In this document: in pieces, positions 13,345 to 18,821 of the stretch
How positions within the stretch are numbered: position 1 is the stretch's first letter
Layout: the number at the start of each line of letters is the position of its first letter
Assembly: GCF_009914755.1 (NCBI RefSeq)
Contig: NC_060935.1
DNA length: 64,000 bases
Reading direction: 5' to 3' (one strand)
Source of the DNA: the human T2T-CHM13v2.0 reference genome, Homo sapiens
Program-made: the position numbers and the translations under genes
Notes under the pieces: generated by a model
Told to the model about the DNA's origin: nothing
Seen by the model: the letters and a program-made list of their open reading frames with translations, nothing else
Database searches by the model: none

Positions 13345-13345
13345 A

Positions 13346-13410
<65 letters not shown>
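13345..13410. repeat. Perfectly self-complementary compound microsatellite A(TG)12(TA)8(CA)12T
   Basis: Counted directly from the sequence. Confidence 0.9.
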
Positions 13411-17100: not shown

Positions 17101-17600
17101 TTCACTCTCAGCTTCTGAAATTGCCTCATACATCAATGGAAAACCAGAAGCAATCATACAGGACTTCCTCATTTTCCACTACCAATTTACCATACATCTT
17201 CACATAGCTTTTCATCTTTGAAAATGCCTATAAGAGGCCAAATCCTCCACTAATGCTCTTCATATATTATTCTCTTAATACCCAAAGAAATTGGTCTTGC
17301 AATTACCTGATTCTCTTCTACATCATCTCTCTACTGGAAAATTACTATAGGTTACACACATGCTCCAATATCTTCTATCTAAGGGAAGTCTTCTGTCTAA
17401 ATTACATTTCCCTTACAGTTCCCCCAATTCTCACAGCAAATCACCTTGAAAGATGTGTCTAAACCCAAAGTTTCCACATCCTTTTCTACCATCTATGGCT
17501 CATGCCACTGTAATCAGTCTTCTCTGCCCTCAGCACCACATTACTGCAATTGTGCTTGTCAGATTCAGCAATAATGTTCCTACACCAAACTCAGTATCAC

Positions 17601-17603
<3 letters not shown>

Positions 17604-17652
<49 letters not shown>

Positions 17653-17944
17653 TTTATTATACTTTAAGTTCTAGGGTACATGTGCACAACGTGCAGGTTT
17701 GTTACATATGTATACATGTGCCATGTTGGTGTGCTGCACCCATTAACTCGTCATTTACATTAGGTATATCTCTTAATGCTATCCCTCCCCACTCACCCCA
17801 CCCCACAACAGGCCCCGGTGTGTGATGTTCCCCTTCCTGTGTCCCAGTGTTCTCATTGTTCAATTCCCGCCTATGAGTGAGAACATGCGGTGTTTGGTTT
17901 TTTGTCCTTGCGATAGTTTGCTGAGAATGATGGTTTCCAGCTTC
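17604..17944 (-). mobile_element. Heavily 5'-truncated young L1PA 3'UTR (L1PA3/4-like) with (TA)n/poly-T tail
   Basis: ttattatactttaagttctagggtacatgtgcacaacgtgcagg...ctgagaatgatggtttccagcttc. 20-bp TSD accaaactcagtatcacttc at 17584-17603 and 18008-18027. Confidence 0.95.
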
Positions 17945-18082
17945 AGAATGATCCAATTCTGTCAAACGTGGCTGAATGTGTGAGCAGGATGAAGATAAAG
18001 AAGTGATACCAAACTCAGTATCACTTCTTTATCTTCATCCTGCTCACACATTCAGCCACGTTTGACAGAATTGGATCATTCT
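17945..18082. repeat. Perfect 65-bp inverted repeat with 8-nt loop
   Basis: 17945-18009 is the exact reverse complement of 18018-18082. Confidence 0.95.
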
Positions 18083-18434
18083 CTCCTTTTGGGAGCATCA
18101 TTTTTTACTCTCAGGCCACTACAACCAACAGGTTTTCTAAGTACTCCACTGGATTCAGTCTTTACTTGGCCAACTTCTTCTCTTCAACGTGACATCTAAA
18201 TATTGAAGTGGCTTGTGGCTCCATTCAAGCCTCCTTTCCTTCTCATTCAATATTCTCTGGCAATTTCATCATCCCATAGGTTTAAATACATATCAACTCC
18301 CAAGGACATGACTTCCTCTGAAGCACAAACTCATTTAGCTAATTGCTGATGTGACCTTTCTGCCTGGATGGCTAGTAAGCACTTCACTTTTAATCCAAAA
18401 CTGAGTGTTTGATTCAGTCTCCTAAAATTTGTTA

Positions 18435-18821
<387 letters not shown>

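What the first reader, a model, noticed from the sequence alone, without database searches (positions are those of the whole stretch)
17584..18082. L1 insertion that copied 65 bp of its own flank in inverted orientation, creating a perfect hairpin
Seen: the structure is TSD (accaaactcagtatcacttc), tail, ~300 bp antisense L1PA 3'UTR, extra sequence, TSD. Positions 17945-18009 are the exact reverse complement of 18018-18082, which covers part of the TSD plus downstream flank. This gives a 65-bp perfect stem with an 8-nt loop. The site ends in cttt/at, an L1 endonuclease-type nick. Inference: the cDNA switched template from L1 RNA onto local target DNA or RNA before integration finished. The zero mismatches between arms suggest recency or homogenisation. 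The hairpin lies between the divergent OR2AG promoters and could extrude a cruciform or give dsRNA if transcribed.
Basis: partly seen in the sequence, partly recalled or inferred. Interest (0 to 1): 0.7.

Follow-up and report, generated by a model that had tools for sequence, protein, structure and literature searches.

The report
Old LINE-1 insertion with foldback scar
A short, broken LINE-1 jumping-gene copy between two smell-receptor genes carries a 63-base mirror copy of the DNA next to it, likely made when the cut chromosome end folded back and copied itself during insertion; this rare scar is already described and no function is evident.

Summary
In detail: 17945-18009 is the exact reverse complement of 18018-18082 (65/65, 8-nt loop), at the 5' junction of a 289-nt minus-strand L1 3' fragment with a 20-bp TSD. 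It is an inherited example of a described rare class: L1 insertion with foldback inversion (inverted duplication) of the 5' flank (Nam 2023, 0.3% plus 0.1% of somatic insertions, 52-220 bp; Mendez-Dorantes preprint Fig. 4D/E, 2-bp homology, small hairpin, TSD kept). Zero mismatches do not need recency or homogenisation (P = 0.16 given the L1's own 5 differences in 289; 0.02-0.04 at the rate of its neighbours). No annotated transcript covers it and no Rfam family reaches threshold. One odd detail: the copy ends on an 8-9-nt word that recurs 13 nt inside the L1 (post hoc P about 0.0006), out of register. Orthologues and reads could not be checked. Real, rare, already explained; low interest.

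The parts
17584..17603 (.). Target site duplication, copy at the L1 3' end (20 bp)
   Evidence: 20 of 20 identical to 18008-18027
17604..17655 (-). L1 tail: about 20 A followed by a (TA)n microsatellite
   Evidence: Sequence; (TA)4 or more follows the 3' end in 9 of 54 related copies
17656..17944 (-). 5'-truncated L1PA 3' fragment, 289 nt (L1PA4-like from recall; subfamily not tested)
   Evidence: 96-97% to the 39 other copies scored; 5 differences from the majority of 29 and of 54 copies
17923..17931 (-). 9-nt word in the L1 that matches the flank at the point where the copy ends (18075-18083 on +)
   Evidence: Last 8 nt of the copy recur 13 nt inside the L1; chance 0.0003-0.001 for a fixed end, 0.01 for any 9-mer in 100 x 40 nt; post hoc
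17945..18007 (-). Added 63-nt inverted copy of 18020-18082 (foldback arm; 65 nt with the 2 shared bases 18008-18009)
   Evidence: Exact reverse complement; 1-nt microhomology with L1 at the outer junction
18008..18027 (.). Target site duplication, copy at the L1 5' end; holds the 2-bp fold (18008-18009 with 18018-18019) and the 8-nt loop 18010-18017
   Evidence: the terminal dinucleotide has 2 possible partners in 93 nt and the nearer was used
18018..18082 (+). Original genomic arm that served as template: 10 nt of TSD plus 55 nt of flank
   Evidence: genome search returned only this place and the inverted arm
18027..18032 (+). L1 endonuclease-like site (cttt/at), inferred first-strand nick
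   Evidence: Sequence; consensus TTTT/A as stated in PMC12016303 passage; exact nick inferred

Best explanation
This is a 5'-truncated L1 insertion whose 5' junction holds a 63-nt inverted copy of its own target site and flank, likely made when the free 3' end of the cut target DNA folded back on itself through 2 base pairs, was extended by a DNA polymerase, and was then joined to the truncated L1 cDNA. Shown: TSD, tail, L1 piece, perfect arms, 2-bp fold, 8-nt loop, 1-nt outer microhomology, copy crossing the first nick. Inferred steps: (1) ORF2p nicks the + strand at or next to cttt/at and reverse-transcribes about 290 nt plus tail; (2) the other strand is cut 20-23 nt away, leaving a 3' overhang; (3) its last two bases pair with the nearest complementary dinucleotide, 12 nt from the end; (4) a polymerase (Pol theta-like, or Pol delta as in yeast; not determinable) copies 63 nt of the same strand, through the overhang and 52-55 nt into resected or displaced flank; (5) the new end is unwound and end-joined to the cDNA; fill-in fixes the inverted repeat. 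The product is most likely a neutral scar several million years old.
For: Same anatomy as the published cases: 2-bp homology, small hairpin, TSD kept (10.1101/2024.12.14.628481 passages on Fig. 4D/E; Fig. S9C legend); length inside the 52-220 bp range of Nam 2023. The copied piece is continuous only on the strand that is not nicked first (8 nt in the TSD plus 55 nt beyond). The fold point coincides with the TSD end. Pol theta extends stem-loops from two terminal base pairs (PMC11292364 abstract and section 12); yeast breaks give local foldback inverted duplications (PMC11724301 abstract). The modelled empty site has no inverted repeat above 8 nt. 0 of 38 related L1 5' junctions show such an arm, in line with a rare class.
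Against: No orthologue, empty allele or reads were available, so timing is inferred. The overhang has no stable hairpin by itself (MFE 0; +1.3 to +1.6 kcal/mol for the fold), so an enzyme must hold it. Stem-loop products were hard to reopen in vitro. The 8-9-nt homology near the outer junction is out of register and unexplained. At the mean divergence of neighbouring copies, zero arm mismatches has P = 0.02-0.04. Nam's preprint reads the same class as cDNA-primed synthesis.
Confidence: 0.75

Rival explanations
1. The L1 cDNA 3' end switched onto local DNA (upstream strand or sister chromatid) at 18082, copied back toward the target and was joined to the overhang by the 2-bp homology (first reader; Nam preprint process C).
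For: Published reading of this class; R2 cDNA ends can prime on nearby target DNA (PMC11371274 passages); a 9-nt word shared by cDNA and flank sits at the switch point.
Against: The template strand is broken at the first nick, yet the copy runs 8-11 nt past it, so a sister chromatid or a second jump is needed; only 1 nt of in-register homology at the priming point; no reason for the copy to stop one small loop from the second nick.
Confidence: 0.12
2. The L1 inserted normally and a later replication template switch (3-2-1-4 type) replaced its 5' end with an inverted copy of the flank, which would make the arms younger than the L1.
For: Short-range template switches make single inverted repeats in great apes (PMC7954356 passages); would explain zero mismatches (P 0.02-0.04 at neighbours' rate).
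Against: Such copies have median 12 nt, maximum 128; the only long perfect inverted repeat in 64 kb would have to fall by chance on an L1 5' junction; zero mismatches is compatible with the L1's own divergence (P = 0.16).
Confidence: 0.06
3. The reverse transcriptase jumped to a local plus-strand RNA spanning the empty site.
For: One such co-insertion of nearby pre-mRNA is reported; an RNA template would be continuous over the nick.
Against: No annotated plus-strand transcript covers the site (supplied table); the copy ending at a 2-bp fold in the TSD would be coincidence.
Confidence: 0.03
4. The hairpin is kept perfect by arm-to-arm correction or selection and acts as a cruciform or dsRNA source for OR2AG1/OR2AG2.
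For: Very stable fold; arms identical.
Against: Identity fits chance; intergenic, no RefSeq element; 11 miRNA-family matches over the hairpin are all below gathering score and reflect shape only; the 12 papers naming both genes do not mention it in titles or abstract starts (listing only).
Confidence: 0.03
5. Assembly or library foldback artefact.
For: Foldback chimeras are a known sequencing artefact (recalled); reads not seen.
Against: The arm sits exactly between an intact TSD and an L1 truncation point and matches a biological class.
Confidence: 0.01

Closest known systems
[quoted passage not shown] 2023, PMC10191854)
   Same: TSD, tail, truncated L1 and an inverted copy of the 5' flank; 63 nt lies in their 52-220 bp range.
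   Different: Their 4 cases are somatic; this one is in a reference assembly on an older L1PA copy. Their preprint assigns synthesis to the cDNA end; the geometry here favours the target-DNA end.
L1 insertion with inverted duplication on the reciprocal end (Mendez-Dorantes et al., bioRxiv 10.1101/2024.12.14.628481, Fig. 4D/E; Fig. S9C of version 1)
   Same: 2-bp homology at the fold, small hairpin, TSD preserved, self-annealed 3' end primes synthesis.
   Different: Cell-line and tumour cases. Here the far end of the copy coincides with an out-of-register 8-9-nt match to the L1.
Pol theta stem-loop templated insertions / yeast local foldback inversions (PMC11292364, PMC11724301)
   Same: Priming from two terminal pairs, inverted repeat left at a repaired break.
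   Different: Yeast copies are mostly 5-34 bp; 63 nt is longer; the polymerase here is unknown.
Twin-primed 5'-inverted L1
   Same: The second-strand 3' overhang primes synthesis and an inverted segment lies between TSD and L1.
   Different: The inverted segment here is genomic flank, not L1 sequence.

Membership tests
L1 insertion by target-primed reverse transcription | Target site duplication | tested here: met
   20 of 20 bp
L1 insertion by target-primed reverse transcription | L1 3' end with A-rich tail | tested here: met
   289-nt L1 3' piece, about 20 A then (TA)n
L1 insertion by target-primed reverse transcription | Endonuclease-type site at the first nick | tested here: inconclusive
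   cttt/at at 18027-18032, but the left TSD lacks the three T
L1 foldback inversion / inverted duplication class | Inverted copy of genomic flank between TSD and L1 5' end | tested here: met
   17945-18007 copies 18020-18082
L1 foldback inversion / inverted duplication class | Short homology and small loop at the fold, TSD kept | tested here: met
   2 bp, 8-nt loop, 20-bp TSD against 2 bp and small hairpin
L1 foldback inversion / inverted duplication class | Copy arose with the insertion (absent from the pre-insertion allele, present on all filled alleles) | not testable with these tools
   No primate relatives or other human assemblies are held
Twin-primed 5'-inverted L1 | Inverted segment is L1-derived | tested here: not met
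   The segment matches only the local flank
L1PA4 subfamily | Diagnostic 3' UTR positions against curated consensus | not testable with these tools
   No consensus library held; primers in PMC12432230 Table 1 lie in 5' UTR/ORF1/ORF2. L1PA4-like is from recall
Known microRNA or structured RNA family | Rfam gathering score | tested here: not met
   0 of 14 matches at E <= 0.1 reach it

The most novel reading that the evidence does not exclude
An inherited, multi-million-year-old foldback insertion in which the length of the copied flank was set by a homology search against the L1 cDNA (the copy stops on an 8-9-nt word present 13 nt inside the L1), showing that theta-like scanning tethers the two ends in the germline even when the final join is out of register; a genome-wide set of such scars would settle which DNA end primes the copy.
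Probability: 0.25. Interest if true: 0.4.

Novelty: new member of a known kind. Interest (0 to 1): 0.2.

Why it matters
Little on its own: it is a tidy example of a rare, described outcome of L1 integration. It has modest value because two papers explain this class differently and the base-level geometry here (copy crosses the first nick, starts at a 2-bp fold in the TSD) favours the target-end foldback model, and because the cases I read were somatic or cell-line while this one appears inherited. My searches listed no paper on inherited examples, but the library lacks most subscription papers, so that is weak. A systematic scan of reference genomes could count such scars and test the mechanism.

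Tried and rejected
Paralogous empty site in the human genome: none found (the tool warns that no match does not prove rarity). Orthologues: no relatives are held for this genome. miRNA or other RNA family: 0 of 14 Rfam matches reach gathering. Twin priming: rejected, the inverted piece is not L1. Recent insertion: not supported, best other copy among those scored is 97% (only 40 of 1467 candidates were scored). (TA)n tail as a special feature: rejected, 9 of 54 related copies have one. Survey for further foldbacks: 54 copies held, 38 with a 5' junction inside the fetched DNA, 0 of 38 with a perfect arm above 10 nt; 16 could not be judged and the junction calls were automatic and rough; a mismatch-tolerant scan of 29 loci gave 1 weak hit, on the 3' side of L017. 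Searches listed more copies but gave no DNA, so they were not surveyed. Subfamily test by published primers: not applicable; PMC4083085 passages gave only a broad age bracket for L1PA subfamilies. Passages of PMC12016303, PMC2912911, 10.1101/2021.12.20.472354 and PMC10415145 did not describe this structure in inherited L1s. Paper search returned nothing.

Full report
Observation. The structure is as described. Arms 17945-18009 and 18018-18082 are exact reverse complements over 65 nt with 8 nt between them; no other non-microsatellite perfect inverted repeat in the window exceeds 15 nt at spacers up to 100 nt, and none of 200 shuffles folds as well. A 20-bp direct repeat (17584-17603, 18008-18027) brackets the insert. 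Read on the minus strand the order is flank, TSD, 63 added bases, 289 nt of L1 3' sequence, about 20 A, (TA)n, TSD. The 29 nearest L1 copies all continue upstream of the truncation point with other sequence, so L1 ends at 17944 and shares one base with the added piece. The flank search returned only this locus and the inverted arm, so the added piece is local DNA, not L1.

Age and the zero mismatches. The L1 piece differs at 5 of 289 positions from the majority of the 29 nearest copies and of all 54 copies held; against the 25 copies picked by another query it differs at 7, two of them split columns. The best other copy among the 40 scored of 1467 candidates is 97% identical, which points to an older L1PA copy (L1PA4-like from recall; not tested). 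Given 5 substitutions, the chance that none falls in the 130 arm bases is 0.16; at its own rate P(no mismatch) is 0.10-0.15, at the mean rate of the neighbours (8.7 of 289) 0.02-0.04. So homogenisation is not required, and not excluded. The (TA)n tail is ordinary: 9 of 54 copies have one. It hides three bases, so the first nick may be at cttt/at (23-bp TSD) or 3 nt away.

Mechanism. On the L1 sense strand the TSD ends in a dinucleotide whose complement occurs twice in the preceding 93 nt, 12 and 54 nt from the end; the nearer one is the fold point. From there the added sequence copies 8 nt of TSD and 55 nt of flank. That stretch is continuous only on the sense strand: the opposite strand is cut at the first nick and its TSD part is the primer of the cDNA. 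A polymerase extending the folded target end therefore makes the whole piece in one run, while a cDNA switching to the upstream strand would run off at the nick and need a second jump or a sister chromatid. This argument is inference from the sequence and the standard TPRT scheme (as stated in passages of PMC2912911). The fold is not stable alone (+1.3 to +1.6 kcal/mol), but Pol theta extends stem-loops from two terminal pairs (PMC11292364, abstract and section 12 read), and yeast breaks yield foldback inverted duplications with one end made by Pol delta and the other captured by end joining (PMC11724301, abstract read). The enzyme here cannot be named.

Unexplained detail. The last 8 nt of the copy (9 with the next flank base) recur 13 nt inside the L1, and 5 nt just before match the L1 bases upstream of the truncation. 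Chance for the 8-mer is 0.0003-0.001 for a fixed end point and 0.01 for any shared 9-mer between 100 nt of flank and 40 nt of L1; these were computed after noticing it. An in-register join would have removed those 13 nt under either model, so it may mark a tethering step or be chance.

Comparison. Mendez-Dorantes et al. (passages of the 2026 version; legend of Fig. [quoted passage not shown] This locus meets every sequence feature of that class; its timing could not be tested because no relatives are held. Figures themselves were not visible, only text and legends. In my small control, 0 of 38 related L1 5' junctions had an arm above 10 nt (16 of 54 not assessable; automatic, rough junction calls), consistent with rarity. 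Later replication template switching is a real source of inverted repeats but its copies have median 12 nt (PMC7954356 passages) and it would have to hit the L1 junction by chance.

Function. The hairpin is 7534 nt from the OR2AG2 5' end and 3348 nt from the OR2AG1 5' end, outside annotated transcripts and RefSeq elements in the supplied table. Of 14 Rfam matches at E <= 0.1, 11 lie on the hairpin and 3 on the nearby Alu; none reaches its gathering score. The listing of 12 papers naming both genes showed nothing on this element (titles and abstract starts only). Cruciform or dsRNA roles are untested speculation.

Verdict. Real; a new member of a known, rare kind; most likely a neutral scar of target-end foldback synthesis (0.75). 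Interest 0.2.

Noticed in passing
window 13345-13410: Perfect 33-bp-arm palindrome with no spacer made of (TG)n-(TA)n-(CA)n microsatellite.
   Followed up: no
window 18468-18773: Plus-strand Alu with a 21-A tail, about 390 nt from the hairpin; its tail can pair with the L1 T run.
   Followed up: no
window 17656-17944: The L1 piece keeps all 5 CpG of the copy majority and has gained one (6), while the nearest copies have lost 0-4; may reflect chance, search bias or low germline methylation.
   Followed up: partly
L013, L014, L015, L016, L038, L039, L051, L052, L054 (3' ends): 9 of 54 related L1 copies have (TA)n within 60 nt of the 3' end; possibly a lineage trait.
   Followed up: no
L017 2460-2584 (L1 sense orientation): Imperfect 48-nt inverted repeat with 29-nt spacer about 670 nt downstream of that L1.
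   Followed up: no
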